This document shows positions 8,944 through 60,375 of a stretch of 60,375 bases of DNA, one piece after another. The position numbers and the translations under genes are program-made. The stretch's first letter is position 1. Every line of letters begins with the position of its first letter. The DNA lies in the IMG/VR virus record IMGVR_UViG_3300046459_000309, positions 1 to 60,375 of that record; one strand, 5' to 3'. Source of the DNA: a virus. A model generated the notes under the pieces. The model had not been told where the DNA came from. It ran no database searches and saw only the letters and a program-made list of their open reading frames with translations.

Positions 8944-9186
8944 ATGGCAACCCTGAAGACGAACGTCCACGTGACGGACTCCGCGGGAGTGAGCCACGTG
9001 TTCGGTCCCGCGGACGAGGTCCCGGAGTGGGCACAGGCGCTCATCACAAATCCGAAGGCGTGGCTGGAGCCGCCCGTCAGTCGACTTACGGAGCCTGCTC
9101 CGGTGCCGGCCGCGAAGAAGGCAGCTCCAGCCAAGCGCGCTCCGGCGCGACGGAAGGCGGGCGGCAGTGCTGTTTCTGACGGCTGA
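8944..9186 (+). CDS. hypothetical protein (Lys/Ala/Pro-rich tail)
   Basis: ORF track; contains palindrome copy 9074-9091 read as VSRLTE. Confidence 0.6.
   Translation: MATLKTNVHVTDSAGVSHVFGPADEVPEWAQALITNPKAWLEPPVSRLTEPAPVPAAKKAAPAKRAPARRKAGGSAVSDG
9074..9091. promoter_or_regulatory. GTCGAC-centred palindrome, copy 1 (ccgtcagtcgacttacgg), inside a CDS
   Basis: Read directly; member of an 11-copy family. Confidence 0.6.
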
Positions 9187-10631: not shown

Positions 10632-10653
10632 CTCCGTGAGTCGACTCGCGGAG
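10632..10653. promoter_or_regulatory. GTCGAC palindrome, copy 2 (ctccgtgagtcgactcgcggag), intergenic before the major tail gene
   Basis: Read directly. Confidence 0.65.
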
Positions 10654-26015: not shown

Positions 26016-26037
26016 GTCCGTGAGTCGACTTGCGGAC
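26016..26037. promoter_or_regulatory. GTCGAC palindrome, copy 3 (gtccgtgagtcgacttgcggac)
   Basis: Read directly; 14 nt upstream of the TTGTGT -35-like hexamer. Confidence 0.65.
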
Positions 26038-26051: not shown

Positions 26052-26080
26052 TTGTGTCGGCCGCCACACCCGCCTACGCT
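26052..26080 (+). promoter_or_regulatory. sigma70-like promoter (TTGTGT-17 nt-TACGCT), apparently leaderless
   Basis: The -10-like hexamer ends 6 nt before ATG 26087, which has no SD. Confidence 0.5.
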
Positions 26081-26086: not shown

Positions 26087-26713
26087 ATGTCGACCTCACC
26101 CGGGCCGCTCCTTCAGGCGCTGGACGCCGTATGGAAGCATGCCCAAACTCATACCCCGGAGCTGCCGCCTGTGCGCATGGCGCTGTCTCCAGCACCCCCT
26201 ACCGCACACCATGGCAGCGAGCGGTGGACGTGGGACGACGAGGCAGTGACGGGCCTTGTCGTCAGCGCGGACACCCTCTCTGCCGGCTCTGACGCCACAC
26301 TGGAGCTACTGCTCCACGAGGCCGCGCACCTCCTCTGTTTCGTTCGAGGCGTGCAGGACACTTCGTCCCGCGCCGGCGTCTACCACAACGCCGCATATCG
26401 GGACGCTGCTGCGGAGGTGGGGCTCTATTGGCCGCCGGACCAGGAACGTCATCCCCGGAAGGGATACGTTTCTCCTGAACTCACAGACGCCACGAGAGCG
26501 CAGTACGCCGACGTGGCAATGGAGCTGGAGCGAGCCATCCCGCTGGTACTGCCACACCTCGTCCTCCCCGAGACGCCCAGTACCCGCACGTCAGACCGAC
26601 GGACGCGGGCCTGCAAGTGCGCGCGGCCGCGGACCATCAGGGTGTCTCCCACGGTGGCGGAGAAGGGGCCAATCATCTGTGGCATCTGCGAGCAGCCGTT
26701 TACCGAGACGTGA
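26087..26713 (+). CDS. SprT-like HExxH zinc-metallopeptidase-domain protein with C-terminal zinc ribbon
   Basis: Frame of ORF 26030..26713; LLLHEAAHLL; ACKCARP...ICGICEQ. Confidence 0.7.
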   Translation: MSTSPGPLLQALDAVWKHAQTHTPELPPVRMALSPAPPTAHHGSERWTWDDEAVTGLVVSADTLSAGSDATLELLLHEAAHLLCFVRGVQDTSSRAGVYHNAAYRDAAAEVGLYWPPDQERHPRKGYVSPELTDATRAQYADVAMELERAIPLVLPHLVLPETPSTRTSDRRTRACKCARPRTIRVSPTVAEKGPIICGICEQPFTET

Positions 26714-26799: not shown

Positions 26800-27540
26800 A
26801 TGCCTAGTGAGCTGGACCGTCGCCCCGATACAGGGAGCCCGGCGGCCGTTGACATCGACGACCTACCCACGCTCCAGGTAGAAGACCTGGCGGAGGAGTC
26901 GGAGGGGCAGCTCGTAGCCCGCGGGGCAGCCCTCGCGCGGGAGTATTTCAAGATCGAGGGGAAGGCAACGACCCTCCTCAAGAACCTTGCCGTGACGCAG
27001 GTTGCCTTGCGGGTCAAAATGGACGATCCGCGCGGGACATCGCACGAGTACAGGACCGTCGTGTCGGAGATGTACCGGTCACTGAACATCGCGCCTGACC
27101 GCATCGAACGAACACAGGCGTCCGTCAGGTGGCACATCAGTAACGTGCTCCGCCGCCACCTAACCCCGCGTGAGCTGGAGAAGAACAATCTCCAATCCAC
27201 GTCAGCGCTGGAGCGCATGCAGGACGCCAGGGCTGTAAACGCGATCATCGTCAAGGCGTCGAAGGTGGCGTCCGCTGTCGACAAGTCCACGCCGAAAGGG
27301 CCGGCGAAGAAGGGGCAGCCAGCCGCCCCCGAGCAGGCCGGCCAGCCAGTCAGGGCGACGGCGGACCATCTCAGGCTCGCTGAAGTGGCTGGGAACATCC
27401 TGGACAAGTTCGACCGGAACGTAATCAAGCGGGACATGACGGACGGGCAGCGGTCCGCGCTGGACAAGCAGTTGGCCGCAATGGAGCGCAAGCTAGCGTC
27501 CCTGCGGAAGCTGACACAAAAGCCCAGCTCAAAGGCGTGA
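26800..27540 (+). CDS. hypothetical protein
   Basis: Frame of ORF 26749..27540; ATG 26800 after GAGAGG; 246 aa. Confidence 0.7.
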   Translation: MPSELDRRPDTGSPAAVDIDDLPTLQVEDLAEESEGQLVARGAALAREYFKIEGKATTLLKNLAVTQVALRVKMDDPRGTSHEYRTVVSEMYRSLNIAPDRIERTQASVRWHISNVLRRHLTPRELEKNNLQSTSALERMQDARAVNAIIVKASKVASAVDKSTPKGPAKKGQPAAPEQAGQPVRATADHLRLAEVAGNILDKFDRNVIKRDMTDGQRSALDKQLAAMERKLASLRKLTQKPSSKA

Positions 27541-30863: not shown

Positions 30864-30883
30864 CTCCGCAAGTCGACTCACGC
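30864..30883. promoter_or_regulatory. GTCGAC palindrome, copy 4 (ctccgcaagtcgactcacgc), starts right after the TAG stop
   Basis: tagctccgcaagtcgactcacg is identical to the 22-mer at 48113-48134. Confidence 0.65.
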
Positions 30884-30891
30884 ACCACCAC

Positions 30892-30920
30892 AGCCCCCGG
30901 TTGCTTCGGCGCCGGGGGCT
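30892..30920 (+). terminator. GC hairpin (agcccccgg...ccgggggct) followed by the shared tail gagtgcgt
   Basis: ccgggggctgagtgcgt also occurs at 39470-39486 after another hairpin. Confidence 0.55.
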
Positions 30921-30951
30921 GAGTGCGTGTAACCACAAGGAGGAGAGAGCC

Positions 30952-35131: not shown

Positions 35132-35667
35132 CCCCGCTTCCGGGCGACTTCGCCCTGACCAAGATCGGCGGCATCACGGGCAAGCTCGTTTCCGCCGGCC
35201 AGGCGCTCATTGGCGACGCCGCTCCGGTCCAGCACGCGTTCGTGTACGTCGGTGACGGCATGGTTGTCCAGGCCATGCCGGGCGGCGCGGAGTTGATCCG
35301 CCTGGAGGACGCGAGTCCCGTTGTCGAGTGGTCGACGGGACACTTCGAGATGGACGGTCAGACGCGGTTCAACATCGCCATGGAGGCGCGTTCCCTCGTC
35401 GGCACTCCGTACAGCTACCTGGACTACGCCTCGCTTGCCCTGGCCCACTTCCGCGTTCGGCCGGCGTGGGTGACGGACTACATCGCGTCGACAGGGCACC
35501 TCATCTGTTCCCAGCTCGTGGACGAGGTCTACCTCCGAGCCGGCGTGCACCTCTTCGACGACGGCCGGTTGCCGGGCGACGTCACGCCTGGGGATCTGTG
35601 GAAGCTGCTGAATCCGCGGCGCGTGACGGCGTCGGACCGAGACCTGTGGAGGTTGGCGAATGAGTGA
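35128..35667 (+). CDS. permuted papain-like (NlpC/P60 / YiiX-type) hydrolase-like protein
   Basis: GTG 35128; ...HAFVYVGDG..., GTPYSYLDY, GHLICSQLVDEVY; assignment from memory, weak. Confidence 0.45.
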   Translation: MTPLPGDFALTKIGGITGKLVSAGQALIGDAAPVQHAFVYVGDGMVVQAMPGGAELIRLEDASPVVEWSTGHFEMDGQTRFNIAMEARSLVGTPYSYLDYASLALAHFRVRPAWVTDYIASTGHLICSQLVDEVYLRAGVHLFDDGRLPGDVTPGDLWKLLNPRRVTASDRDLWRLANE

Positions 35668-36184
35668 GCGATGCGGAACCGGATCGACCCTCGAAGAGCT
35701 GGAGGAGGCATACGAGCGTGCCCGCCAGGCCCGGATCGACCGCTACTACCAAGGCGAGAGCGCCAGCGACATGGCGGAACGCATCGTCGACCTGGAGGAC
35801 GAGCTAGGTGCTGACGTCGACGGCATCAGTACCGGAATGCATGCCGACGTGGCGGAGGCTCAGTGCGAGATCGAGCGCCTGGAGCGCGCCCTCCGTCTCT
35901 CGGAAGCCAAGATCGGTGGGGCCGCGCTCTACGTGGGCCAAGCGAACGCCAGGTCCAACATGCTGGAGAACGCCCTGACGGTGTACGAGGGCATCGCGGA
36001 TGAGCGAGACCGCTACCGCCTTGCCTGGCTCTCTGCCCGCCGGCGTGCCGCGGATGAGGCCAACTTCGGTATGGAGGCATTGGAGCTGCGGGACGCGGAG
36101 ATCGCACGCCTGAAGGCGGAGCTGGACAACCTCCGCAAGTCGACTCACGGAGCCCCGGAGCTGGAGCACGTCTGCACCGACTAG
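35660..36184 (+). CDS. hypothetical coiled-coil protein
   Basis: ORF track; carries palindrome copy 5 near its 3' end. Confidence 0.65.
   Translation: MSERCGTGSTLEELEEAYERARQARIDRYYQGESASDMAERIVDLEDELGADVDGISTGMHADVAEAQCEIERLERALRLSEAKIGGAALYVGQANARSNMLENALTVYEGIADERDRYRLAWLSARRRAADEANFGMEALELRDAEIARLKAELDNLRKSTHGAPELEHVCTD
36131..36152. promoter_or_regulatory. GTCGAC palindrome, copy 5 (ctccgcaagtcgactcacggag), in the 3' end of a CDS
   Basis: Read directly; translated LRKSTHGA. Confidence 0.6.
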
Positions 36185-36223: not shown

Positions 36224-36255
36224 CGTGCCACATCTGACCGCCAGCACCCCATAAC
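36224..36255 (+). promoter_or_regulatory. bipartite promoter-like motif, copy C
   Basis: cgtgccacat-ctgaccgc-cagcaccccataac; ends 63 nt before ATG 36319. Confidence 0.55.
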
Positions 36256-36318: not shown

Positions 36319-37089
36319 ATGGCGAACAACCTGCGCAGCATCTTCGAGACCGACCCCGACGCCAAGCCGAAGCCGCGGAAGCAGAACTTCTCCGATGACG
36401 TCGTCGGTCGCTTCCGCTCCGGTCGCCTCGTCGGCAAGCAGCCGGAGAGCCTGAACGAGTGGCGCGTCACGACCGGTGATCCGGCCGTTGCTGATGCAGT
36501 GTCGGCGCTCATGGGCGGCACCGCGGAGGAGTGGGACACGGACAAGGAGGACAACCTCCAGATCCTGACCGACTCCAAGTCGGTGGACATCATCATCGAC
36601 TCGTCGGACGCCATCGACGCTTCGATGAAGAAGTTCGGCTTCGGGGGTCTGGAGCACCACTGCGACGGCGTCAAGTTCCTGAGCGACGATGACGCAACCC
36701 TGGTCGGTACCGCCTGCGGCTGCCCGCCGCTGCTCCAGGACCGCAAGGACCGCGCGAAGAGCCAGAAGGGCCCGAAGCCCAGCATCGACGTCACGTTCAA
36801 GCTGGCGGAGCGTCCGGAGCTGGGCTACTTCCGCTTCAACTCCGGCGGCTGGTCCCTCGTGAACGTCCTACACGAGGTGATCGAAGCCGTCGACACCACG
36901 GGCGGGCGCCAGGAGGACGCAGACGGCAAGGTGACCGACAAGGGCCGCCCGGTCCGGGCGTCGCTGACGATCGAGCACGTCGCCTACACGACGAAGGCCG
37001 GTCGCGACGTTGCGTACAACATGCCCGTCATCAAGGTGACCGGCGTCTACGAGGCCGCCCAGCCGGCGGACCTGGCGACGGCTGCCTGA
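36319..37089 (+). CDS. hypothetical Cys/His-containing protein, first gene of the replication operon
   Basis: ORF track; 256 aa; LEHHCDGVKF...GTACGCPP; see finding on a possible RDF. Confidence 0.75.
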   Translation: MANNLRSIFETDPDAKPKPRKQNFSDDVVGRFRSGRLVGKQPESLNEWRVTTGDPAVADAVSALMGGTAEEWDTDKEDNLQILTDSKSVDIIIDSSDAIDASMKKFGFGGLEHHCDGVKFLSDDDATLVGTACGCPPLLQDRKDRAKSQKGPKPSIDVTFKLAERPELGYFRFNSGGWSLVNVLHEVIEAVDTTGGRQEDADGKVTDKGRPVRASLTIEHVAYTTKAGRDVAYNMPVIKVTGVYEAAQPADLATAA

Positions 37090-39514: not shown

Positions 39515-39922
39515 ATGGCATCGGCACAGTACGAGACTCGCACGCACATGGTGGAGGAGACGTTCGTCGTCCTCCGACTGACGGAGGACGAGGCGGACAC
39601 GCTGCGGAACGTGGTCGGGCACGCGAGCGGCACCGTAGCTGCGCAGGTATATCGAGCGCTGGAGAAGCCCGCAGCGCTGGAGACGCCCGCAGCGCTGGAG
39701 ACGCCCGCAGCGCCGGAGACGACGGCCGACACCTTCGAGTACGGAGGCGTCACGTACGACATGAGTGCGCGGTATCGGGATCGGGACGGCGACGTCTGGC
39801 ACTTCACGCGATTTGGCGACGTCGTCAGGGGTGGCATTCGGCGCACCGTCGCAGATGAGTGGGACGGGGAGTCAGTCGCCTACGTCGTCGGGTACGGACC
39901 GCTGACGAAGGTCACCGCATGA
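39515..39922 (+). CDS. hypothetical protein with PAALET tandem repeat and DxDGDxW motif
   Basis: ORF track; FEYGGVTYDMSARYRDRDGDVWHF parallels the C-terminus of the upstream gene. Confidence 0.7.
   Translation: MASAQYETRTHMVEETFVVLRLTEDEADTLRNVVGHASGTVAAQVYRALEKPAALETPAALETPAAPETTADTFEYGGVTYDMSARYRDRDGDVWHFTRFGDVVRGGIRRTVADEWDGESVAYVVGYGPLTKVTA
39667..39720 (+). repeat. 3 x 18-bp tandem repeat gcccgcagcgc(t/c)ggagac (PAALET x3)
   Basis: Read directly; third unit has one substitution. Confidence 0.9.
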
Positions 39923-41967: not shown

Positions 41968-41986
41968 CCCGCAAATCGACTCACGC
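41968..41986. promoter_or_regulatory. palindrome family, copy 6, variant core AATCGAC (cccgcaaatcgactcacgc)
   Basis: Starts right after the TAG stop; followed by a terminator. Confidence 0.55.
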
Positions 41987-41994: not shown

Positions 41995-42026
41995 AGCCCC
42001 CTGACTCTCCGGAGCAGGGGGCTTTT
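41995..42026 (+). terminator. rho-independent terminator
   Basis: agccccctg-loop-cagggggct then tttt. Confidence 0.8.
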
Positions 42027-42060: not shown

Positions 42061-44547
42061 GTGCGACTGACCGACATCCTGGATCGATTCGGCAGGGTCG
42101 AACAAGATCATGATGGCTGGCTGGCTCTGTGCCCCGCGCACAACGACCAGACGCACCCCTCACTCAAGCTGACGCTGAAGTCTGACGGCATGCTGCTCAT
42201 GGTCTGCCGGACCGGCTGCGCGAAGGCGGACATCCTGAAGGCTGCCAACCTGACGGCCGCGGATCTCTTCAACGTCGACGGCCAGGGCGTGAAGACGATC
42301 AGCGCGAAGGCGCCGGAATCCATTGGCCCGGGGGAGATCGCCGGACTCCGCATGTTCGTCGACGAGGCGTCGGCCGCACTGGCTGGCACCCCGGAGGCGG
42401 TGGCGTACCTGGCCGACCGCTTCGGCCTCACGGTGGAGCAGGCGGAAGACCTGGACGTCGGATACGCGGCGCCCGGAGACCGCTCGCAGCCCTGGCTGAC
42501 GCGCGGCTTCACCCGGTACCCGCGGCTGACTGTCCCGCTCATCGGCTTCGACGGTGTGGTTCGCGGCCTTCAGGGGCGGGACCTGTCCGGCAAGTGCCCC
42601 GCACGTTGGGTGTCGCTGGCAAACGTCGACGGCAAGACGTGGGCCAAGTACGGCCAGCTCTCCGCCGGCACGGGCTACGACACGATCCTTGTGACCGAAG
42701 GCCCGGGGGACGGACTGACTTCCGTCGGTGTCGGCTATGACGCGCTGATCATCCGTGGCGCCGGTCTGGCCCGGAACGCCGGCCTCGTCGCCGAACTCGT
42801 GGAGCAGCTCCGCGGCCGTGACGTTGTGCTGGCCTTCGACCCTGACGACGCAGGAGCGCGCGGTATCGGCGCCCTGGCAACGGCGCTCGTGGCCGACGGC
42901 AATCACCCGAGGCAGCTCCCGTTCCCCAACGCCAAGGAGGACCTGACCGACTGGCGGGAGAGGACGCCAGCGACGTTCCCCGCGGAGCTTCACACCGCCG
43001 TTCGCTCCGCCCCTGTGGTGGACCTGGAGCAGCCCAAGACACCCGCACCCACACCGCCGAAGGAGGCTGACATGCCCGCCACTGACGCCGCACTGGACAC
43101 CATGTCGGAGTCCGCGCGCAGCCTCTTCGACAACACCGACGTCGGCATTGCCGTCATGCTCCGCGACTTCATCACCGCCAACGGCGGGGGAGTCCGGTAC
43201 GCCAAGGGGCTCGGCTACCTCTGCTGGGACGGCAAGGTGTGGGCGCCGGGCGGCGACAAGGTCCGCGAGTACCTCCATCTGATGGGCGCCGAACTGATCG
43301 CTTCGGCCGACGACTCGAAGCGCCGGCTGGCACTGAAGGCGCTGTCGAACCGAAGCATCGACGCCGTGATGAAGGAGCTGCCGAGTGCGCCGGGAGTGCC
43401 CGCGCAAGCCGCGGACTTCGACGCGAATCACGAGCTGCTGAGCGTGGAGAACGGGACGGTCAACCTGCGGACTGGCAAGCTTCAGCCACACGCCCCGTCG
43501 GACATGATCACCAAGCGCCTCGATGTCGCTTACCACCCGGACGCACCTGCGGAGCGTTGGAACCAGTTCCTGACGGAGGTGTTCCCCGGACACCCCGATC
43601 TCCCTGGATTCATGAAGCGGCTCGTCGGCTACGGATGCACCGGGAGCACGTCGGAGCACTGCTTCGCCTTCCTCCACGGGCAGGGGAGCAACGGAAAGTC
43701 GGTGTTCCTTGACGCGCTTATCCACGTGTTCAAGGGCGTCACGCAAGCGACGCAGTTCAGCACCTTCGAGAAGTCCGTGAACGTCGGCCAGGCAAGTCCC
43801 GAACTGGCGTCCCTCCGTGGGGCGCGGCTCGTGACGGCGTCGGAAACGGAGAAGTACAGCCGCCTGGCTGAGGCGCTCGTGAAGCAGCTGACGGGAGGCG
43901 ACCCGATCACGTGCCGCTTCCTGAACCAGAACCCGTTCACCTACGTGCCGTCGTTCCTCCTTCTTGTGGCCGGCAACTTCAAGCCCGCGATCCTGTCGCA
44001 GGACGAGGGGACCTGGCGTCGGGTCAAGCTGATCCCCTTCGACGCCACGTTCTCCTACGCCCGTGGCAACAAGGACACAACCCTCCCCGCCAAGCTGCGC
44101 GAGGAGGCGGAGGGCATCCTCGCTTGGTCCGTCGCCGGCGCCGTGGAGTGGTACGCGAACGGACTTGGTGAGCCGACGTCCGTCGCCACCGCCACGCAGG
44201 ACTACCGGGAGTCGGAGGACCGCCTTCAGGAATGGCTGAACGCATGCCTCGTCAAAGAGGAAGGCGCGCGGGTTGCCCCCATGGCTGCCCGACGTGCCTA
44301 CGCGGAGTGGGCAGAGGATGCCGGACTTGACCGCAAGGAGCGGCTGTCTGGTTGGGCTTTGGCCGTCGAACTTGAGAGCCGCGGGTTCAAGAAAGCTAAG
44401 AAGCGGGGCGCTTGGGGCTTTGACGGACTGCGCCTCATGACGGACCAAGAGAAGCAGACCGCGAGTCGACTCGCGGAGGCCGTTGACGAGCCCGCCGGCC
44501 ATGCCGGTCCAACCGATGTGTTTGGCCAGCCCAAAAAGGAGGCGTGA
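42061..44547 (+). CDS. bifunctional DNA primase / SF3 helicase (Toprim + P4/D5-type)
   Basis: GTG after GGAAGGAGAG; LALCPAHNDQTHPS...CRTGC, Toprim ILVTEGPGDGL and VLAFDPDDAG, Walker A GQGSNGKS. Confidence 0.9.
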   Translation: MRLTDILDRFGRVEQDHDGWLALCPAHNDQTHPSLKLTLKSDGMLLMVCRTGCAKADILKAANLTAADLFNVDGQGVKTISAKAPESIGPGEIAGLRMFVDEASAALAGTPEAVAYLADRFGLTVEQAEDLDVGYAAPGDRSQPWLTRGFTRYPRLTVPLIGFDGVVRGLQGRDLSGKCPARWVSLANVDGKTWAKYGQLSAGTGYDTILVTEGPGDGLTSVGVGYDALIIRGAGLARNAGLVAELVEQLRGRDVVLAFDPDDAGARGIGALATALVADGNHPRQLPFPNAKEDLTDWRERTPATFPAELHTAVRSAPVVDLEQPKTPAPTPPKEADMPATDAALDTMSESARSLFDNTDVGIAVMLRDFITANGGGVRYAKGLGYLCWDGKVWAPGGDKVREYLHLMGAELIASADDSKRRLALKALSNRSIDAVMKELPSAPGVPAQAADFDANHELLSVENGTVNLRTGKLQPHAPSDMITKRLDVAYHPDAPAERWNQFLTEVFPGHPDLPGFMKRLVGYGCTGSTSEHCFAFLHGQGSNGKSVFLDALIHVFKGVTQATQFSTFEKSVNVGQASPELASLRGARLVTASETEKYSRLAEALVKQLTGGDPITCRFLNQNPFTYVPSFLLLVAGNFKPAILSQDEGTWRRVKLIPFDATFSYARGNKDTTLPAKLREEAEGILAWSVAGAVEWYANGLGEPTSVATATQDYRESEDRLQEWLNACLVKEEGARVAPMAARRAYAEWAEDAGLDRKERLSGWALAVELESRGFKKAKKRGAWGFDGLRLMTDQEKQTASRLAEAVDEPAGHAGPTDVFGQPKKEA
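44459..44476. promoter_or_regulatory. GTCGAC palindrome, copy 7 (ccgcgagtcgactcgcgg, perfect 18 bp), inside the primase-helicase CDS
   Basis: Read directly; translated TASRLAEA. Confidence 0.55.
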
Positions 44548-48115: not shown

Positions 48116-48137
48116 CTCCGCAAGTCGACTCACGGAA
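48116..48137. promoter_or_regulatory. GTCGAC palindrome, copy 8 (ctccgcaagtcgactcacggaa), right after the TAG stop
   Basis: Read directly. Confidence 0.65.
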
Positions 48138-48161
48138 CCCCGCAGCTGTCAGCCTGCGGGG
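48138..48161 (+). terminator. GC hairpin ccccgcag-ctgtcagc-ctgcgggg (no U-tract)
   Basis: Read directly. Confidence 0.5.
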
Positions 48162-48251: not shown

Positions 48252-48283
48252 CGTGCCACATTCCGCGCCCAGCACCCCATAAC
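48252..48283 (+). promoter_or_regulatory. bipartite promoter-like motif, copy D, in front of the sigma-factor gene
   Basis: cgtgccacat-tccgcgcc-cagcaccccataac; ends 32 nt before ATG 48316. Confidence 0.55.
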
Positions 48284-48315: not shown

Positions 48316-49098
48316 ATGTCGATGCCGGTCACCGTGACAGACGCTCAAATTCTTTCCGCGCAGGGTGGGGACGAGATGGCGATGTGGGATGTTATCTCCG
48401 CCTTCGAACCCATGATGCGCACTATCATCCGGAGCGCCGCCCCTGCCGCGGACGCCGACAAGGCGGAAGATCTGCTTCAGGAAGCACGCATCGCGCTGCT
48501 GCAGCACATTCGCGAGTACTCCACGGAAGGCACGGCAGCCGCTCTCTCCTCGTTCGCATATCGCGGGATCCACCGCGCCGTTGCGGAGGAGTGGATTCGG
48601 ATGTCCAGCCCCTTCAAGGTCGACCCGACCTCGGTCATCAGGGTCCGTCGCGCACTTTGGGAGGCGAGCGGCGACGTCGAAGAAGCCTGGTTGATCGTAT
48701 CGGCCGACGCACAGGCGAAGCGACAGATGTCGCGTGAAGTCTTTGTGAGTATTCGTGAAGCACTCATGGACGTCAGCAGCCTGGAGGCCCCCCTCGCCTC
48801 CAGCGAAACCGGCGTCACACTGGGCGACACCATCCCTGACGAGACGTCCGGCTTCACCGACTCCACCGAGCGTCGCGACCTTGCTCGCTGGCTGCTGACG
48901 CAGATTCCGCAGCGTCAGGCGTACGCGCTGCGCGCCTTCTACGGCATCAACGCCCTGAAGCAGACGGACGAGCAGACAAGCGACGAGCTGGGGCTCAGTG
49001 CAGCCAAGAACTGCGCCGCACTCCGAACAACCCGCCGCAACGGCGTCCGCAGCGCCCGCAACGTCGCAGCCGGCAACCACATCACGCTCGCTGCGTGA
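48316..49098 (+). CDS. sigma-70 family RNA polymerase sigma factor (phage-encoded)
   Basis: Region 2-like DLLQEARIALLQHIREY...FAYRGIHRAVAEEW; region 4 HTH IPQRQAYALRAFYGI...TSDELGLSAAK; 260 aa. Confidence 0.8.
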   Translation: MSMPVTVTDAQILSAQGGDEMAMWDVISAFEPMMRTIIRSAAPAADADKAEDLLQEARIALLQHIREYSTEGTAAALSSFAYRGIHRAVAEEWIRMSSPFKVDPTSVIRVRRALWEASGDVEEAWLIVSADAQAKRQMSREVFVSIREALMDVSSLEAPLASSETGVTLGDTIPDETSGFTDSTERRDLARWLLTQIPQRQAYALRAFYGINALKQTDEQTSDELGLSAAKNCAALRTTRRNGVRSARNVAAGNHITLAA

Positions 49099-49272: not shown

Positions 49273-49294
49273 CTCCGTGAGTCGACTCACGGAG
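49273..49294. promoter_or_regulatory. GTCGAC palindrome, copy 9, perfect 22 bp (ctccgtgagtcgactcacggag)
   Basis: Read directly; 1 nt after the TGA stop and 26 nt before ATG 49321. Confidence 0.7.
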
Positions 49295-50596: not shown

Positions 50597-50632
50597 GGGG
50601 GAGTTCCGCAAGTCGACTCACGGAACTCCCCC
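50597..50632. promoter_or_regulatory. GTCGAC palindrome, copy 10, embedded in a 36-bp palindrome (gggggagttccg-caagtcgactca-cggaactccccc)
   Basis: Read directly; core 50604-50625. Confidence 0.7.
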
Positions 50633-50635: not shown

Positions 50636-50676
50636 GGTGTTGTGTCGGCCGACATATCTGTGCCATAGTCGGAGCA
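50636..50676 (+). promoter_or_regulatory. sigma70-like promoter cassette (TTGTGT-18 nt-CATAGT), 41-bp repeat copy 1
   Basis: ggtgttgtgtcggccgacatatctgtgccatagtcggagca; differs at 3 positions from 52246-52286. Confidence 0.55.
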
Positions 50677-50715
50677 CGCCAGGGACTCACGGAGAGTCCG
50701 GCAGGGGAGGACGAC

Positions 50716-51012
50716 ATGAACTGGACCACCGAGACGCTTCGTTCCGGAGTCGCGATCGACACGGCATACGACCACCGCCGGGAGCTGGCTTCGGTTCCGG
50801 GCACCTGGTACCGCGTTCGTCAGGGCGACGTCCTGATCCTCACCACCCGCAACCGGGGCGACGCACTGCGCCGGTTCCAGCGGACCGCCAGCAGTGCCTA
50901 CACCGCCCCCAAGTGCGGCCCTAAGACTGTGTCGCACACGGCCGGCGGGGGACTCACCTACCTCTACTGCACCGCTCCCGCCGGTCACGCCGGCAAGCAC
51001 ACCACCAACTAG
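50716..51012 (+). CDS. hypothetical protein (98 aa)
   Basis: Frame of ORF 50398..51012 from ATG 50716 after GGGGAGGA. Confidence 0.6.
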   Translation: MNWTTETLRSGVAIDTAYDHRRELASVPGTWYRVRQGDVLILTTRNRGDALRRFQRTASSAYTAPKCGPKTVSHTAGGGLTYLYCTAPAGHAGKHTTN

Positions 51013-51088
51013 CCGAAACGCCCTCCGGGGCGTCCGCGGGGACTGGCCTACCCGCGCTGATGAGGCAGGCCGTAGGAGAGGACCAGGT

Positions 51089-51208
51089 ATGTGCCCCTGC
51101 TGTGGAGCCGAAACCAACCGCTTCAACACCGACTGTGAGCCGTGCTTCACCGCTCTTCTCGAAGGTCGAGAGTGCGTCCACGCAGTCGACGCTCACGCAA
51201 GTCACTGA
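51089..51208 (+). CDS. zinc-ribbon micro-protein (39 aa)
   Basis: ATG after AGGAGAGGA; MCPCCGAETNRFNTDCEPCFTALLEGRECVHAVDAHASH. Confidence 0.45.
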   Translation: MCPCCGAETNRFNTDCEPCFTALLEGRECVHAVDAHASH

Positions 51209-51215
51209 CCCACCC

Positions 51216-51282
51216 GCCCCGCATAGGAAAGCCCACGGCGCCCCCAGCGCCAGGGCGCGCGGTTCGAATCCGCGGCGGGGCA
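51216..51282 (+). other. tRNA-like element with a truncated D-arm (67 nt)
   Basis: Acceptor gccccgc/gcggggc, canonical T-arm cgcgg-ttcgaat-ccgcg, 4-bp stem with loop cccccag (no U33); D region only 11 nt. Confidence 0.35.
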
Positions 51283-51312
51283 CTCAACGTTAGATCATCG
51301 TCAGGAGGCGCC

Positions 51313-52069: not shown

Positions 52070-52278
52070 CGTTCGAAAGCGGCTGTTCCGCGGTCGTCGA
52101 CGACGTCGCACAGCGCCACTTCCTCCGCCAAGCGGTCGGCCGCGGATACGGGCGGACGAGGGTGCGCGGTGGATGGGTCATCACGCTGCCGGGGGAGACG
52201 CTCGTCGCGATGCTCCGTGAGTCGACTTACGGAGGTTCGGCGCTAGGTGTTGTGTCGGCCGACATAACTGTGTCATAG
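52054..52278 (+). CDS. hypothetical protein whose 3' end runs through palindrome copy 11 and the next promoter
   Basis: ORF track; C-terminus LRESTYGGSALGVVSADITVS is encoded by regulatory repeats. Confidence 0.5.
   Translation: MRYRVTFESGCSAVVDDVAQRHFLRQAVGRGYGRTRVRGGWVITLPGETLVAMLRESTYGGSALGVVSADITVS
52213..52234. promoter_or_regulatory. GTCGAC palindrome, copy 11 (ctccgtgagtcgacttacggag)
   Basis: Read directly; 15 nt upstream of TTGTGT. Confidence 0.65.
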
Positions 52279-53071: not shown

Positions 53072-53806
53072 ATGACTACCAACGCCCCCGCCCCGTGGGC
53101 CGTCAGAGCCACCCGGAAGCACGGTCAGACGACCGTCCTCTACGCCGCCCTGGCGCTCTCCGCGCCCGGTGAGTACGCGCTCGCACAGATGGCCGGCTGG
53201 GATCACCGTGTGGCCTGGCTGATGCCGGCCGTTTTGTCGCTCTATGCGGCGATCAGCGCCAGCGTTGCGAAGGCTCAGAAGACAACGGCCCGCGAACTCG
53301 TCGGAACGCCGCAGGAGGCGGAGGCCAAACGTCGTTCCGCCAACGCAACGTGGGGCGCTCTCGTGGCGCTGCTCATCGCAACGGCCGCACAGGTTGCGGA
53401 ACACGTGCTCACAACGGGCGCAACGGGCACGCGGGCATGGGTTGTCATCATCGTCAGCGCCGTTCCGCCGTTGGTAGCGGCCCACGTGCTGCACATCGAC
53501 CCGCCGATGGAGCTGGAGCCGACGGAGGAGCGCGAGACACCCGCGTGGCTGCCACAGGAGGCCCTTCAGGAGCCTGCGGAGGAGCCGGAGCGCCAACTCC
53601 CCGCGCCGCCCGTGGAAGAGCCGGAGAAGCCCATCCTGGTGACCTACAGGGAAGCCGCTGATGCTCTCGACGTCGCTGCGGAGACCGTCCGCGGGTGGAA
53701 GGCGCAGGGAAAGATCATCAGCTACCCCGGACAGGGCACCAACAACGTTCTGGTTGACCTCCGGGAATGCCAGAGCGTCAAGGCCCGCCGTTCAGTCAGC
53801 GTTTAG
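53072..53806 (+). CDS. multi-pass membrane protein with C-terminal excisionase/MerR-type HTH
   Basis: Several hydrophobic segments, PEEPE-rich linker, then LVTYREAADALDVAAETVRGWKAQGKI. Confidence 0.7.
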   Translation: MTTNAPAPWAVRATRKHGQTTVLYAALALSAPGEYALAQMAGWDHRVAWLMPAVLSLYAAISASVAKAQKTTARELVGTPQEAEAKRRSANATWGALVALLIATAAQVAEHVLTTGATGTRAWVVIIVSAVPPLVAAHVLHIDPPMELEPTEERETPAWLPQEALQEPAEEPERQLPAPPVEEPEKPILVTYREAADALDVAAETVRGWKAQGKIISYPGQGTNNVLVDLRECQSVKARRSVSV

Positions 53807-55235: not shown

Positions 55236-56087
55236 GTGTCCGAAGCCCCGTACCCGTCAGCCCGCATCCACGAAGCGCATGAGCGCGTTGCCGCTCGCCT
55301 TCGGGAGCTCCGTCTCGATGCGGGACTGACGGGCCGCGAGGTGGCCGTCCGCACGGGCTGGCAGACGTCGAAGGTCTCCCGGCTCCAGACCGGTGCCACG
55401 CTGCCCGCAGACGACGACATCCGGGCATGGTGCCGGGCGTGCAACGTGGAGGACGAGGCGGCCGACATCATCGCCGCTGCTCGCGATGCCGGGTCGATGT
55501 ACATGGAGTGGCGACGCCTCCAGCGGACCGGCATGAAGCGGGTGCAGGAGTCCCGGACGCCCATCCACGAGCGGACGAAGGCGCAGCGCGTCTACAGCTC
55601 CAGTGTCATCCCGGGAATGCTTCAGACGCGCGCGTACGCCGCTGCCCTGCTCTCCAACATCGCCCGCTTCCACGGCACCCCGGACGACTCCGCGGAGGCC
55701 GCTGACGCCCGCGTGGCACGATCCCAGATCATCCGCCGGCCAGGGCGCACGTTCTCAATCCTCGTGGAGGAGTCAGTACTCCGTCGACGGGTGGGCAGCG
55801 CGGAAACCATGGCGGCACAGCTGGGGCACCTCCTGACGACCGCTGCGCTCCCTGCCGTCTCCCTTGGCGTCATTCCCGCCTCAGCGCCCGCCATATGGCC
55901 GCTGGAGACATTCACGGTGTACGACGACACCACGGTCTATGTGGAGCTGCTGACGGCCGCACTGACGATTACGGCGCCGTCGGAGATCGCTCAATACCTC
56001 GCCGCGTACGGCGAGATGGCTGACGCTGCGGTGTTCGGCCAGGACGCCTATCGCATCATCGCGGGCGCCCTCTCGGCACTCAGCTGA
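55236..56087 (+). CDS. XRE-family HTH regulator with DUF5753-like C-terminal domain (WhiJ/Scr1-type); candidate repressor
   Basis: GTG start; LRELRLDAGLTGREVAVRTGWQTSKVSRLQTG; 283 aa. Confidence 0.75.
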   Translation: MSEAPYPSARIHEAHERVAARLRELRLDAGLTGREVAVRTGWQTSKVSRLQTGATLPADDDIRAWCRACNVEDEAADIIAAARDAGSMYMEWRRLQRTGMKRVQESRTPIHERTKAQRVYSSSVIPGMLQTRAYAAALLSNIARFHGTPDDSAEAADARVARSQIIRRPGRTFSILVEESVLRRRVGSAETMAAQLGHLLTTAALPAVSLGVIPASAPAIWPLETFTVYDDTTVYVELLTAALTITAPSEIAQYLAAYGEMADAAVFGQDAYRIIAGALSALS

Positions 56088-57005: not shown

Positions 57006-58505
57006 ATGGAACCCATGAGGGTATTCACGTACCGGCGCATCTCACGCGTCACCGAACGGACGACAAGCATCGAGCGGCAGGGGGAACACCTCGTCGCAGA
57101 ATGTGAACGCCGAGGATGGGTCATCGTGGACGATTTCGCAGACGAGGGCGTCAGCGGGGCCACCGACCCATCAGAGCGGCCGTACATGTCGAAGATGCTT
57201 GCCAGACTGGATGAGGTCGACGCAATCGTCTTCTATCGCCTGGATCGCCTGTGCCGGTCGACGTTGGCGTTCGCGGAGCTGATGGACCTCTGCAAGCGCG
57301 TTGGTGTCGCACTCGTCAGCTGCACCGAACCTCTTGACCTCTCGTCACCTATGGGCGTCGCCATGGCGGAAATCATCGCCGTGTTCGCCAAGCTCGAAAG
57401 GGCAATGATCCGGGAGCGGTCGATGGATGCCCGGCGAAAGGGGATGGAGGATCAAAAGTTCGTCGGAGGACGATTCCCTTACGGCCTGACGCCGGCGCCG
57501 CACCCGTCCGGAAAGGGACGGGCGCTCGTCCGCGACGAAGAAGCCGCGAAGGTGATCCAACGGATGGCCGCAATGGTTGTAGCCGGACACAGCGCGACGG
57601 CTATCGCCAAAATCCTGAACGCGGACAAGGTACTCACGTCCCGCATGAAGGGTGCGACCGCCAAACTGGCCGGCGGACACGAAGCACAGGTGACGTACTG
57701 GCGGGGCAACGCCGTGCGCGCCGTACTGCGCAACAAGGTGCAGCTGGGCTACCGCATCCTGCCCAACGGGCGGCCGGAAACGGGCACCGACGGCCTACCG
57801 CTCATTGTGTGGGAGCCAGTTCTCACATGGGACGAGTGGGAAGCCGTACAGAGCGCACTGGACACCATGGCGGCCACCCGCACGCTACGGCACGACGCCT
57901 ATTGGCTTCAGGGCGTACTCAGGTGCGGTGTGTGCGACGCCAGGATGACTCAAACCGTCGCTCACGGTCGTACGGGGCTCAAATGCGCCCAGCCCAACGA
58001 GAACAGGCATAAGCCCTCCCCGTTCATTCGGGCCGACGACCTGACCGACTGGGTCAACGCACACATGATGGCCGTGCTCGGGTGGTTGCCCATCGTCGAA
58101 AACATCTGGCACGCGGGCAGCAACAGCGCTCAGGAGCGCCGAGAGGTCGCCACCGCTATCAAGCGGCTGCGCGAGGACCGGAGCAAGGGGCTGTACGAGG
58201 GTGAGGAGGATGAAGCGGAATTCGAAGCGGCGATGACCACGCTGATGGCCAAGCGTCGCGTGCTGGCCAGCCTGGAGGACGAAGAGCCACGCTGGGAAAC
58301 CGTGAGCACGGGACGACGCTTCCGTGACGTGTGGGAGTCGTCCAGCGAGGAAGCCCGCGCATCCATGATGCAGAACGCGGGACTTGTGGTCCGCATCGAG
58401 CCGGCGGGAGGCAAGCGACTGCCTGTAGGGGAGCGTGCTCGCATCGAGCCTGAGGACCCAATCGCTACGAGGTTGGCGGAAATCGAAGCGGAGGAGCGGG
58501 AATAG
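57006..58505 (+). CDS. int: large serine recombinase (integrase)
   Basis: YRRISR...SIERQ, GVSG, IVFYRLDRLCRS (resolvase-type catalytic domain); zinc ribbon CGVCDARM...LKC; coiled-coil C-terminus; ATG 57015 is an alternative start. Confidence 0.92.
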   Translation: MEPMRVFTYRRISRVTERTTSIERQGEHLVAECERRGWVIVDDFADEGVSGATDPSERPYMSKMLARLDEVDAIVFYRLDRLCRSTLAFAELMDLCKRVGVALVSCTEPLDLSSPMGVAMAEIIAVFAKLERAMIRERSMDARRKGMEDQKFVGGRFPYGLTPAPHPSGKGRALVRDEEAAKVIQRMAAMVVAGHSATAIAKILNADKVLTSRMKGATAKLAGGHEAQVTYWRGNAVRAVLRNKVQLGYRILPNGRPETGTDGLPLIVWEPVLTWDEWEAVQSALDTMAATRTLRHDAYWLQGVLRCGVCDARMTQTVAHGRTGLKCAQPNENRHKPSPFIRADDLTDWVNAHMMAVLGWLPIVENIWHAGSNSAQERREVATAIKRLREDRSKGLYEGEEDEAEFEAAMTTLMAKRRVLASLEDEEPRWETVSTGRRFRDVWESSSEEARASMMQNAGLVVRIEPAGGKRLPVGERARIEPEDPIATRLAEIEAEERE

Positions 58506-59262: not shown

Positions 59263-59335
59263 GCTTCCGTAGCTCAGTGGTTAGAGCGTCCGCCTGTCGA
59301 GCGGAGGGGCGTCGGTTCGAATCCGATCGGGAGCG
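59263..59335 (+). tRNA. tRNA-Asp (GTC)
   Basis: Hand-folded cloverleaf: acceptor gcttccg/cgggagc, anticodon loop ctGTCga, T-loop ttcgaat. Confidence 0.85.
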
Positions 59336-59444
59336 CAAAGGTACGGGGCTGCTTCGGCAGGAAAAGCCACCTCCCCGCGAACGTTGGAGCCTTGCGCACC
59401 GGGCCTAGAGCCAGGGAGGCGAAGGAGCGGCCCGACGTCACACA

Positions 59445-59516
59445 CCTTTCGTAGCTCAATGGCTAGAGCCGCGCGTTGTGGTCGCGCTGATCCCGGTTCG
59501 ACTCCGGGCGAAGGGA
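59445..59516 (+). tRNA. tRNA-His (GTG)
   Basis: Acceptor cctttcg/cgaaggg, stem gcgcg/cgcgc, loop ttGTGgt; no encoded G-1. Confidence 0.8.
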
Positions 59517-59568
59517 CGACTGTCCACGAGGTGCCGGCAACGGGGCTCAAATGCCGTGGACAGCTCAA

Positions 59569-59643
59569 GGTCTCGTAGCTCAGTCTGGATAGAGCACCGG
59601 ATTACGGATCCGGGTGTCGGAGGTTCGAATCCTTCCGGGATCA
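59569..59643 (+). tRNA. tRNA-Arg (ACG)
   Basis: Acceptor ggtctcg/cgggatc, stem ccgga/tccgg, loop ttACGga. Confidence 0.85.
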
Positions 59644-59653
59644 CACAGTGCAC

Positions 59654-59725
59654 GCCTAGCTAGCTCAGCGGTAGAGCGTCGGTTTCATACGCCGGAGGTC
59701 GGTGGTTCGAATCCATCGCTTGGCA
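59654..59725 (+). tRNA. tRNA-Met/Ile2 (CAT)
   Basis: Acceptor gcctagc/gcttggc (one mismatch), loop ttCATac. Confidence 0.8.
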
Positions 59726-59874
59726 CTGACGGACGGTCGCAGGCGAGGGGAAACCATCGCACCCGGAGAACAGTCCGGTGATACTGCGGCCGACGTCGAC
59801 ACCCGAGCTTCACGGTTCGGAAGGACGGAAGAACAACGGGGATGGCGGACTACCGTGCGGCCCGCTTCCGTCGA

Positions 59875-59947
59875 ATGGGCGTAGCTCAACTGGAAGAGCG
59901 GCGGTCTCCAAAGCCGCGTGTTGGAGGTTCGAGTCCTCCCGCCTGTG
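59875..59947 (+). tRNA. tRNA-Trp (CCA)
   Basis: Acceptor atgggcg/cgcctgt (two G-U), stem gcggt/gccgc, loop ctCCAaa. Confidence 0.8.
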
Positions 59948-60025
59948 CAAGCCCCGGCGGACCGATCGACGAGGGAGAACCTGCTTTCGCGCAGGCCGCT
60001 CGAAGACATGCCGTCGGGGCTCCAA

Positions 60026-60107
60026 GCGTTGAGTCCTGGGAGGCAAGCGGGCCTGTAAAGCCTGCGCTGCGATAGCGGCTAGCGTGGTTCGATTCCACGG
60101 CGACGCA
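60026..60107 (+). tRNA. tRNA-Tyr (GTA)-like, long variable arm but shortened D-arm
   Basis: Stem cgggc/gcctg with loop ctGTAaa, variable hairpin cgct-gcgat-agcg, T-arm cgtgg-ttcgatt-ccacg, acceptor gcgttga/gcgacgc 6/7. Confidence 0.5.
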
Positions 60108-60110
60108 CGA

Positions 60111-60186
60111 CGGGGTGTGGCGCAGTTGGTAGCGCGCTCGCTTTGGGAGCGAGAGGACGAGTGTTCAAGTCACTCCACCCCGACCA
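60111..60186 (+). tRNA. tRNA-Pro (TGG), CCA encoded
   Basis: Acceptor cggggtg/caccccg, stem ctcgc/gcgag, loop ttTGGga, T-loop ttcaagt, 3' acca. Confidence 0.88.
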
Positions 60187-60238: not shown

Positions 60239-60375
60239 TCACGGCCCGACGCGCCTGAACGTCAGCATGACGCGATCACCCGACGGATGCGGCTCGCTGT
60301 ACTCCAGCTTCCACCCCGCCATCTCGACGCGAGTGACGAGCCTTTCCGACTTGTGGACGCCGCCAATCGCCACGC
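60239..60375 (-). CDS. 3' end (with stop) of the junction-spanning minus-strand gene; 60249-60375 duplicates 1-127
   Basis: Minus strand reads ...MLTFRRVGP-TGA, stop at 60241-60239. Confidence 0.6.
   Translation of the reverse strand, partial: VAIGGVHKSERLVTRVEMAGWKLEYSEPHPSGDRVMLTFRRVGP

What the first reader, a model, noticed from the sequence alone, without database searches (positions are those of the whole stretch)
49273..49294. Eleven-copy GTCGAC-centred palindrome family: a genome-wide operator (or RNA hairpin) code
An 18-22 bp palindrome with consensus CCG-YRA-GTCGAC-TYR-CGG occurs at 9074, 10632, 26016, 30864, 36131, 41968 (AATCGAC variant), 44459, 48116, 49273 (perfect 22-mer), 50604 (inside a 36-bp palindrome) and 52213. 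Seven copies are intergenic and begin 0-15 nt after a stop codon. The 22-mer tagctccgcaagtcgactcacg is identical at 30861 and 48113. Three copies are followed within 10 nt by GC hairpins (30892, 41995, 48138). Three sit 14-15 nt upstream of a TTGTGT -35-like box (26052, 50640, 52250). Four lie in coding DNA, where they read as SRL or STH/STY peptides. About 14 fixed positions recurring 11 times in 60 kb cannot be chance. This resembles the conserved inverted repeats bound by the phiC31 repressor across its early region, so a dimeric HTH protein (for example 55236-56087 or the HTH of 53072-53806) is the natural ligand. Each site would also fold into an 8-10 bp RNA hairpin with a UCGA loop, so an RNA-level role (processing or attenuation) is an alternative.
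Basis: partly seen in the sequence, partly recalled or inferred. Interest (0 to 1): 0.78.

Follow-up and report, generated by a model that had tools for sequence, protein, structure and literature searches.

The report
Dispersed phage repressor operator sites
An 18-base near-palindrome repeated 11 times in this Streptomyces phage genome is most likely the set of DNA landing sites for the phage's own phiC31-type immunity repressor, a known kind of silencing system seen here in a new, undescribed version.

Summary
CCGYRAGTCGACTYRCGG occurs 11 times in this complete ~60.2 kb temperate Streptomyces phage, against about 1 expected. Seven copies are intergenic (P=6e-5).

The closest known relative, phage Samy, has none of these. 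It has 13 copies of its own variant, GCGTAAAACGACTCACGC, at matching positions. More than 35 of the 46 related (pro)phage loci examined (some redundant) carry a genome-specific version, SCG-YR-A-[6 nt]-T-YR-CGS. In almost every locus that includes that region, one copy lies between a terminator and the promoter of an operon encoding a SprT-like protease and a repressor.

That repressor (26800-27540) is a remote homologue of the phiC31 repressor c. It occupies the same gene position. phiC31 has 16 similarly dispersed inverted repeats.

Variable stem positions show no Watson-Crick covariation, and two window sites do not fold as sense RNA. This argues against an RNA hairpin.

Best reading: a dispersed operator set for the c-like repressor (confidence 0.62). 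Binding, the sign of regulation and the strand-orientation bias remain untested. This is a new variant of a known kind, of moderate interest.

The parts
9074..9091 (.). operator copy 1 (CCGTCAGTCGACTTACGG), inside a small head-region ORF; syntenic with Samy site 8366
10634..10651 (.). operator copy 2, intergenic, 16 nt after the stop at 10617 and before the major-tail-like gene; syntenic with Samy 10597
26018..26035 (.). operator copy 3, between terminator hairpin 25964-26009 and the promoter of the SprT-like/repressor operon; its centre is about 60 nt upstream of the leaderless ATG at 26087; the equivalent position carries a copy in almost every related locus that includes it
30866..30883 (.). 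operator copy 4, 2 nt after the stop at 30863, followed by GC hairpin 30891-30921
36133..36150 (.). operator copy 5, in the 3' end of ORF 35660-36184, 75 nt upstream of type-B promoter-like element 36225-36255
41969..41986 (.). operator copy 6 (AATCGAC variant), 1 nt after the stop at 41967, followed by terminator-like hairpin 41995-42023 + TTTT; syntenic with Samy 37877 (same ...gacgacgagtagcc flank)
44459..44476 (.). operator copy 7, perfect palindrome inside the 3' end of the primase-like gene 42061-44547
48118..48135 (.). operator copy 8, 2 nt after the stop at 48115, followed by hairpin 48138-48161 and type-B element 48253-48283 upstream of the sigma-like gene
49275..49292 (.). operator copy 9 (perfect 22-mer 49273-49294), between the stop at 49271 and the probable ATG at 49321
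50606..50623 (.). operator copy 10, core of a 36-bp palindrome, 16 nt upstream of the TTGTGT -35 box at 50640
52215..52232 (.). operator copy 11, 17 nt upstream of the TTGTGT -35 box at 52250
26800..27540 (+). proposed ligand: 246-aa all-helical repressor, remote homologue of phiC31 repressor c (Pfam Phage_Repressor_c), 45% identical to Samy SAMYPH_32
26087..26713 (+). SprT-like metalloprotease gene, first gene of the repressor operon (leaderless start); possible partner or anti-repressor protease
   Evidence: Samy RNA-seq
26052..26080 (+). host-type promoter of the repressor operon (TTGTGT-17-TACGCT)
   Evidence: sequence reading; inference
50639..50662 (+). type-A promoter-like element GTTGTGTCGGCCGACATATCTGTG next to operator 10
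52249..52272 (+). type-A promoter-like element GTTGTGTCGGCCGACATAACTGTG next to operator 11

Best explanation
The 11 sites are double-stranded DNA operators of a phiC31-type immunity system. The 246-aa c-like repressor (26800-27540) is made from a leaderless operon together with a SprT-like protease. I infer that it binds the 18-bp quasi-palindrome SCG-YR-A-GTCGAC-T-YR-CGS as a dimer or higher oligomer. One copy sits just upstream of the repressor's own promoter, which suggests autoregulation. Two copies sit about 60 nt upstream of host-type early promoters (50640, 52250). The rest lie at gene and operon junctions in both the early and late regions. Together they would keep the prophage silent and confer immunity, through promoter-proximal control plus roadblocking or bridging between sites, as proposed for phiC31 and for the L5/R4 stoperators. 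The central 6 bp differ between related phages and would set the immunity specificity.

Shown here by computation: enrichment and placement of the sites, concerted genome-specific variation at syntenic positions, absence of RNA-type covariation, and homology and synteny of the repressor. Inferred: that this protein binds the sites, and the sign and mechanism of regulation.
For: (1) 11 copies against 1.1 expected. Seven of 11 are intergenic, P=6e-5.
(2) Samy (TerL 87.6% aa identity) has 0 copies of this motif. It has 13 copies of GCGTAAAACGACTCACGC at matching positions.
(3) 18 Streptomyces prophage loci and 28 IMG/VR loci (some redundant) were examined. More than 35 carry their own variant with invariant C2 G3 A6 T13 C16 G17 and a genome-specific centre: GTCGAC, AACGAC, AACAAC, AACGTT, GACGAC, ACCGGT, GGCRCC or AACGAT. 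Copies recur about 4 and 8 kb downstream of the first.
(4) In 17 of the 18 genome loci, a copy lies between a terminator and the promoter of the SprT-like/repressor operon.
(5) The repressor family links to phiC31 c. One family member hits Pfam Phage_Repressor_c at 4.8e-7. hhalign gives E=3.3e-4. Reciprocal HMM searches hit in one consistent register. The gene order dNMP kinase, repressor, exonuclease matches phiC31 gp52-c-gp1.
(6) phiC31 has 16 CTACTCACGTGAGTAG repeats. Fifteen are intergenic, many 7-26 nt after stop codons, including in late genes. phiC31 is stated to have many dispersed repressor binding sites (PMC4557955).
(7) Positions 4-5 and 14-15 are pyrimidine-purine steps with no Watson-Crick covariation: pair 5/14 gives 48 WC against 48.6 expected, with 42% mismatches.
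(8) Exact-motif clusters occur only in Streptomyces contigs; those checked carry the repressor homologue.
(9) In Samy lysogens, the SprT-like and repressor genes are over-expressed in 10 of 10 non-inducing conditions (PMC11302927).
(10) Repressor residues 68, 72, 91 and 127 nearly partition GTCGAC genomes from AACGAC genomes.
Against: There is no binding data. The window protein itself does not reach any Pfam or PHROG threshold for the phiC31 repressor. The profile-profile probability is only 38% over 75 columns. Fold searches did not recover phiC31 c or any DNA-binding fold.

No repressor alignment column perfectly separates the motif types. L052/L202 has the GTCGAC motif with only 39% identity to the window repressor, and it groups with genomes that have other centres.

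Repressor and motif lie in the same genome, so their co-variation could reflect shared descent rather than a direct interaction.

Operator centres lie near -60 from the start of the repressor operon (and at the same spacing from the -35 box at the other two type-A promoters), not over the promoter. Simple occlusion is therefore unlikely, and the sign of regulation is unknown.

Asymmetric variants show a 39:7 orientation bias on the sense strand. A symmetric dimer model does not predict this.
Confidence: 0.62

Rival explanations
1. The sites act in sense RNA. Each folds into a short hairpin that serves as a processing, attenuation, stabiliser or terminator signal, possibly read by a phage RNA-binding protein.
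For: All genes are on the + strand, so every site is transcribed. Several sites fold well, for example -15.5 kcal/mol at 49275. Most follow stop codons. Asymmetric variants are strongly biased to one orientation on the sense strand, 39:7, which an RNA element would explain. A conserved hammerhead ribozyme nearby shows that RNA processing occurs in this region.
Against: There is no Watson-Crick covariation at the variable stem pairs, with 30-42% mismatches on the sense strand. Sites 30866 and 41969 have MFE 0.0, and five of the 11 carry C.A/A.C mismatches. The preferred orientation is the one that folds worse. Three sites are followed by separate GC hairpins, so the palindromes are not the terminators themselves. 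No Rfam family matches. Concerted genome-specific change of a 6-nt 'loop' requires a co-evolving trans factor in any case.
Confidence: 0.1
2. The sites are operators, but for a different phage DNA-binding protein: the XRE/DUF5753 protein (55236-56087), the gp25-like C-terminal HTH protein (53072-53806), or the SprT-like protein.
For: The XRE protein has a clear HTH_31 domain, and gp25-like has a C-terminal HTH. Dimeric HTH proteins typically bind such palindromes. SprT-like is encoded next to the conserved operator, so it co-varies with the motif as closely as the repressor does.
Against: No site lies within 3 kb of the XRE gene. Contig 3300046557_000287 (L014/L197) uses the window's GTCGAC motif but has XRE and gp25-like HTH sequences of the Samy type, and Samy uses AACGAC. 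SprT-family proteases are not known as sequence-specific binders (general knowledge).
Confidence: 0.12
3. The repeats are not regulatory. They are recombination or module-boundary sequences, small mobile palindromes (REP/MITE-like), or targets of a phage nuclease or methyltransferase built around the SalI-like GTCGAC core.
For: The sites lie at gene boundaries. The phage family encodes several HNH nucleases and methyltransferases (Samy annotation). GTCGAC is a restriction-type palindrome.
Against: Positions are syntenic across genomes while the sequence changes in concert, which is the opposite of mobile-element behaviour. GTCGAC itself occurs 96 times with no avoidance or special placement. 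Many relatives have non-palindromic centres. The copy at the repressor promoter recurs in almost every locus.
Confidence: 0.04

Closest known systems
phiC31 repressor c and its conserved inverted repeats (CIRs)
   Same: A temperate Streptomyces siphovirus with nearly all genes on one strand. The repressor gene lies between the late/lysis genes and the exonuclease. There are 11-16 copies of a 16-18 bp inverted repeat, mostly intergenic, often just after stop codons, in both late and early regions, with one copy upstream of the repressor gene. It also has a gp3-like RDF, a gp12-like sigma factor, a serine integrase and a family of unusual conserved early promoters at matching positions.
   Different: The operator sequence is unrelated (CCGYRAGTCGACTYRCGG against CCTACTCACGTGAGTAGG). 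The repressor is 246 aa against 683 aa and is only remotely similar over about 90 residues. There is no sign of nested isoforms. It is co-transcribed with a SprT-like protease gene that has no counterpart at this position in phiC31. Sites are often asymmetric, with YR-degenerate positions and a centre that varies between phages.
Stoperators of mycobacteriophage L5 (Cluster A) and Streptomyces phage R4
   Same: Many repressor sites are dispersed through the genome at intergenic positions and are thought to silence the prophage by blocking elongation as well as initiation (PMC4557955; PMC10276819). The orientation bias of the asymmetric variants here (39:7) recalls oriented stoperators.
   Different: L5 sites are 13-bp asymmetric sites bound by a monomer of an unrelated repressor. 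Here the site is an 18-bp dyad-like sequence and the repressor family is different.
Streptomyces phage Samy (OR263580)
   Same: Same phage group: TerL 87.6% aa, same gene order, repressor 45% identical. It has 13 copies of a homologous operator at matching positions.
   Different: The operator centre is AACGAC rather than GTCGAC, so Samy probably has a different immunity specificity. A term search of the Samy paper's main text finds no 'operator', 'palindrom' or 'motif'.

Membership tests
phiC31-type repressor/CIR immunity system | Repressor belongs to the phiC31 repressor c family (Pfam PF25746 Phage_Repressor_c) | tested here: inconclusive
   The window protein has no Pfam or PHROG hit to the family. 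At family level the link is remote but consistent: one of 62 homologues hits PF25746 at 4.8e-7, hhalign gives E=3.3e-4 with probability 38%, and reciprocal HMM hits reach 1.7e-8 in one register.
phiC31-type repressor/CIR immunity system | Many (>10) copies of one 16-18 bp inverted repeat dispersed over late and early regions, mostly intergenic | tested here: met
   11 copies, 7 intergenic, P=6e-5. phiC31 has 16 copies, 15 intergenic.
phiC31-type repressor/CIR immunity system | A copy immediately upstream of the repressor gene or operon (autoregulatory operator) | tested here: met
   26018-26035 lies between the terminator and the promoter of the SprT-like/repressor operon, as in 17 of 18 genome loci. 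phiC31 has a CIR at 19201, upstream of c at 19274.
phiC31-type repressor/CIR immunity system | Repressor gene located between the dNMP kinase/lysis end of the late operon and the exonuclease, on the same strand | tested here: met
   dNMP kinase 25051-25641, repressor 26800-27540, exonuclease 27798-28601.
phiC31-type repressor/CIR immunity system | Repressor protein binds the repeats in vitro or in vivo | not testable with these tools
   Needs EMSA, footprinting or ChIP-seq.
phiC31-type repressor/CIR immunity system | [quoted passage not shown] | tested here: not met
   The gene encodes only 246 aa and the homologues are 220-277 aa. There is no long N-terminal extension as in the 683-aa phiC31 c.
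L5/R4-type stoperator system | Short asymmetric sites in a fixed orientation relative to transcription, bound by a monomeric repressor of the L5 gp71 family | tested here: not met
   The sites are 18-bp dyad-like sequences and the repressor is unrelated to any PHROG or Pfam repressor family of that type. Only the orientation bias of the asymmetric variants (39:7) resembles it.
Structured RNA element (hairpin, terminator or processing site) | Base pairs maintained by compensatory change; stable fold on the transcribed strand at all copies | tested here: not met
   No covariation at pairs 4/15 and 5/14 across 128 sites. Sense-strand MFE is 0.0 at two window sites. No Rfam hit.

The most novel reading that the evidence does not exclude
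The sites may be polar, orientation-dependent control points rather than simple symmetric operators. They could be read on DNA like stoperators, or on the sense transcript. That would give a natural set of at least 8 orthogonal repressor/operator pairs in Streptomyces prophages, paired with a SprT-like protease that could act as an ImmA-like inducer.
Probability: 0.15. Interest if true: 0.7.

Novelty: new variant of a known kind. Interest (0 to 1): 0.45.

Why it matters
It would define the immunity circuit of the Samy-like group of Streptomyces prophages, which are common in sequenced strains: 82 repressor homologues, none carrying a functional name in any source. The only published study of the group does not appear to describe operators.

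It links a short, unannotated repressor family to the classical phiC31 repressor. No relative of either was found among solved structures by sequence or fold, so the way they recognise DNA appears to be unknown.

It offers a testable specificity code, with invariant arms and a variable 6-bp centre. That could yield orthogonal repressor/operator pairs for Streptomyces engineering and could predict which prophages are immune to one another.

It does not overturn current understanding. The logic is the one already known from phiC31, L5 and R4.

Tried and rejected
- DNA similarity search of the region against phage records found only a 70-bp match to Samy.
- A single-protein scan of viral contigs for the repressor found nothing. 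The alignment-based scans worked.
- Direct BLASTP of the window repressor against phiC31 c was not significant.
- PHROG and Pfam scans of the window repressor gave no repressor family.
- Foldseek of a confident AF2 model (pLDDT 89.5) against BFVD and PDB gave no significant hit. A profile search of PDB sequences also gave none.
- A search for exact repeated palindromes in Samy failed, because the Samy motif is asymmetric. It was found through direct-repeat families.
- A search for repressor alignment columns that perfectly separate GTCGAC from AACGAC genomes found none when L052 was included. Only near-partitioning columns emerged.
- The original phiC31 papers (PMIDs 10219087 and 8139924; PMC148434) are not held. 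A literature search for 'conserved inverted repeats' with 'actinophage' returned nothing. Statements about CIR binding therefore rest on PMC4557955 and on my own knowledge.
- The idea that GTCGAC is a restriction-type signal was rejected: 96 copies, no avoidance, no special placement.
- The simple terminator reading was rejected: the consensus terminator scan does not pick up the sites, and separate hairpins follow three of them.

Full report
**What the window is.** The window is a complete phage genome. Its first and last 127 bases are identical, GC content is about 65%, and essentially all GC3-supported genes lie on the + strand. It encodes a serine integrase (57006-58505), a gp3-like recombination directionality factor (36319-37089) and a sigma-like protein (48316-49098). 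It also carries six tRNA genes. The only close relative among annotated phages is Streptomyces phage Samy: large terminase 87.6% aa identity, with DNA barely alignable. The Samy authors annotated it as sharing many early genes with phiC31.

**The observation.** Shuffles give 1.13 +/- 1.21. The secondary details also check out:
- the shared 22-mer at 30861 and 48113
- the perfect 22-mer at 49273
- the 36-bp palindrome around 50606
- GC hairpins after three copies
- TTGTGT boxes 16-17 nt after three copies

Seven copies are intergenic, six of them beginning 1-16 nt after a stop codon. On my own GC3-based gene map 11.6% of the genome is intergenic, so seven of 11 has P=6e-5. The bare hexamer GTCGAC is uninformative, with 96 copies.

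**Relatives show concerted, genome-specific variation.** Samy has no copy of the window motif. It has 13 copies of GCGTAAAACGACTCACGC, in either orientation, at matching positions. For example, both phages have a copy directly after the same '...gacgacgagtagcc' gene end, one after the sigma-like gene, one before the major-tail region, and one before the repressor operon.

An exact-pattern scan of IMG/VR found multi-copy clusters in about ten contigs of 48-59 kb from the same phage group. I then fetched 18 Streptomyces genome loci and 28 viral loci (some redundant) around homologues of the candidate repressor. More than 35 of them carry their own internally consistent variant of one scheme, SCG-YR-A-[6 nt]-T-YR-CGS. 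The centres seen are GTCGAC, AACGAC, AACAAC, AACGTT, GACGAC, ACCGGT, GGCRCC and AACGAT. Copies recur at roughly the same three positions within +/-10 kb of the repressor gene.

In a 596-Gb genome collection, single exact matches are scattered through unrelated GC-rich genomes, as chance predicts. Clusters occur only in Streptomyces contigs, and those I could check carry the repressor homologue. Sequence that changes in concert at fixed positions is the signature of a site that co-evolves with a genome-encoded trans-acting factor. It is not the behaviour of a mobile repeat or a generic structure.

**DNA site or RNA hairpin?** I pooled 128 non-redundant sites, oriented to the transcribed strand. 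Positions 2, 3, 6, 13, 16 and 17 are essentially invariant. Positions 4-5 and 14-15 are almost always pyrimidine-purine steps (TG, CA, CG, TA) but do not covary to keep pairing:
- Pair 5/14 is Watson-Crick in 48 sites against 48.6 expected under independence, and mismatched in 42%.
- Pair 4/15 is Watson-Crick in 75 sites against 67 expected (p=0.06).

In the window, five sites read CA..CA, which gives C.A and A.C mismatches in sense RNA. Sites 30866 and 41969 have no stable sense-strand fold at all (MFE 0.0), and the others range down to -15.5 kcal/mol. Three sites are followed by separate GC hairpins, so the palindromes are not the terminators. No Rfam family matches them. Conserved YR steps without covariation fit protein recognition of deformable duplex DNA better than a selected RNA stem.

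One observation points the other way. Variants with an asymmetric centre are strongly biased to one orientation on the sense strand, 39 to 7. CA..CA outnumbers TG..TG 11 to 2 among GTCGAC sites. Many of these sites are homologous, so the number of independent events is smaller than the counts suggest. The favoured orientation is also the one that folds worse as RNA. The bias is still unexplained by a symmetric-dimer model and is compatible with a polar, stoperator-like action.

**Which protein?** In 17 of the 18 genome loci, a copy lies between a terminator hairpin and the promoter of a two-gene operon encoding a SprT-like metalloprotease and a ~245-aa protein. In the window the layout is:
- terminator 25964-26009
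- operator 26018-26035
- TTGTGT at 26052
- TACGCT at 26075
- leaderless ATG at 26087 (SprT-like, ending at 26713)
- second gene 26800-27540

[quoted passage not shown] Their RNA-seq table lists SAMYPH_31 and SAMYPH_32 as over-expressed in 10 of 10 non-inducing conditions (PMC11302927).

The family has 82 homologues, nearly all from Streptomyces, none carrying a functional name in any source. The window protein alone shows no significant match to phiC31 c. The family as a whole does:
- One member hits Pfam Phage_Repressor_c at 4.8e-7.
- Profile-profile alignment gives E=3.3e-4, probability 38%, over 75 columns.
- Reciprocal HMM searches give hits down to 1.7e-8, all in one register: family residues ~15-105 against the core of c.

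The gene order dNMP kinase, repressor, exonuclease is that of phiC31 gp52-c-gp1. A confident AF2 model (pLDDT 89.5) is all-helical. It has no significant match in BFVD or the PDB by fold or by sequence.

The XRE protein (HTH_31 + DUF5753, 55236-56087) and the gp25-like protein (53072-53806, hydrophobic N-terminus plus C-terminal HTH) fare worse. No site lies within 3 kb of the XRE gene. Contig 3300046557_000287 uses the window's GTCGAC motif, yet both its XRE and its gp25-like HTH are of the Samy type, and Samy uses AACGAC.

For the c-like repressor, residues 68, 72, 91 and 127 nearly partition GTCGAC genomes from AACGAC genomes. No column does so perfectly. One GTCGAC genome (L052/L202) has a repressor only 39% identical to the window's and groups with genomes that have other centres. 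The specificity argument is therefore suggestive, and it is confounded by shared descent.

**Comparison with phiC31.** Scanning phiC31 directly gives 16 copies of CTACTCACGTGAGTAG. Fifteen are intergenic, many 7-26 nt after stop codons, including after terminase, capsid, tape-measure and tail-fibre genes. One lies upstream of c and one just upstream of a conserved early promoter. [quoted passage not shown] PMC10276819 describes the same stoperator logic for Streptomyces phage R4. From my own knowledge (Ingham et al. 1994; Wilson et al. 1995; neither could be retrieved), the 42-kDa phiC31 repressor binds these repeats in vitro.

The window also has a four-copy conserved element, GTGCCACAT-N7-CCAGCACCCCATAAC, at 24983, 27726, 36225 and 48253. 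These lie before the dNMP kinase, exonuclease, RDF and sigma genes, which are the same positions as the phiC31 early promoters. Samy has counterparts.

**Mechanism and remaining doubt.** I commit to the following. These are operators for the c-like repressor. One autoregulates its operon. Two control host-type early promoters at 50640 and 52250. The remainder, at operon junctions, insulate or roadblock transcription or serve as anchors for repressor bridging. The centre hexamer sets immunity specificity.

What is not shown is binding, stoichiometry and sign. The operator centre lies about 60 nt upstream of the start of the repressor operon, and the other two type-A promoters have the same operator-to--35 spacing. 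That argues against simple occlusion and would even allow activation of the repressor's own promoter. In the Samy data, genes after the other type-A promoters appear only weakly expressed in lysogens compared with the repressor operon (my reading of the count columns). This fits repression there but is not proof.

**Novelty.** A term search of the Samy paper's main text finds no 'operator', 'palindrom' or 'motif'. The literature searches found no description of this motif. The system follows a known logic but has three new features: a new operator family, a short repressor subfamily that current domain libraries miss, and an accompanying SprT-like protease. I rate it a new variant of a known kind, with interest 0.45.

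Noticed in passing
window 51011-51074 (+): Rfam hit above the gathering score to a type II hammerhead ribozyme (42.8 bits, GA 37), with an intact CUGAUGA / GAAAC / GUC core. It lies between ORFs 50637-50924 and 51060-51293. The same element is found on the coding strand in six related viral contigs (L001, L004, L009, L021, L029, L031), but not at threshold in Samy.
   Followed up: partly
window 26087-26713 and 26800-27540: The repressor is co-transcribed with a SprT-like zinc metalloprotease from an apparently leaderless promoter. The pairing recurs across the related loci examined and is highly expressed in Samy lysogens. It recalls protease/repressor pairs such as ImmA/ImmR, so the protease may be the induction switch.
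   Followed up: partly
window 24983-25013, 27726-27756, 36225-36255, 48253-48283: A four-copy conserved 31-nt element, GTGCCACAT-N7-CCAGCACCCCATAAC (inside a ~71-nt repeat), lies upstream of the dNMP kinase, exonuclease, RDF and sigma-like genes. These positions match those of the unusual phiC31 early promoters. It is probably a phage-specific promoter class.
   Followed up: partly
window 1-127 and 60249-60375: The two ends are 100% identical over 127 nt, so the window is a circularly closed or terminally redundant assembly of a ~60,248-bp genome.
   Followed up: no
window 59263-60183: A cluster of six tRNA genes on the + strand, downstream of the integrase. Samy has four at the same place.
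   Followed up: no
window 53072-53806: The gp25-like protein appears to combine a hydrophobic, probably membrane-spanning N-terminal half with a C-terminal HTH. Relatives carry two unrelated N-terminal types fused to a similar HTH.
   Followed up: partly
window 15161-15603 and 39655-39726: Internal repeats of 57-135 nt period in the tape-measure gene, and four tandem copies of an 18-nt unit (AGCGCTGGAGACGCCCGC) inside ORF 39515-39922.
   Followed up: no
window operator right half compared with phiC31 (L037) CIRs: The heptamer ACTCACG is shared between the window/Samy operators (GACTCACGG) and the phiC31 repeat (CTACTCACGTGAGTAG), but the half-sites are arranged in the opposite relative order. 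This may be coincidence, or a trace of common ancestry with a changed dimer geometry.
   Followed up: no
128 pooled sites from window, Samy, L001-L055: Asymmetric-centre operators are 39:7 biased to one orientation on the transcribed strand. In Samy, the four copies in the minority orientation all lie immediately upstream of type-A promoters. This is unexplained.
   Followed up: partly
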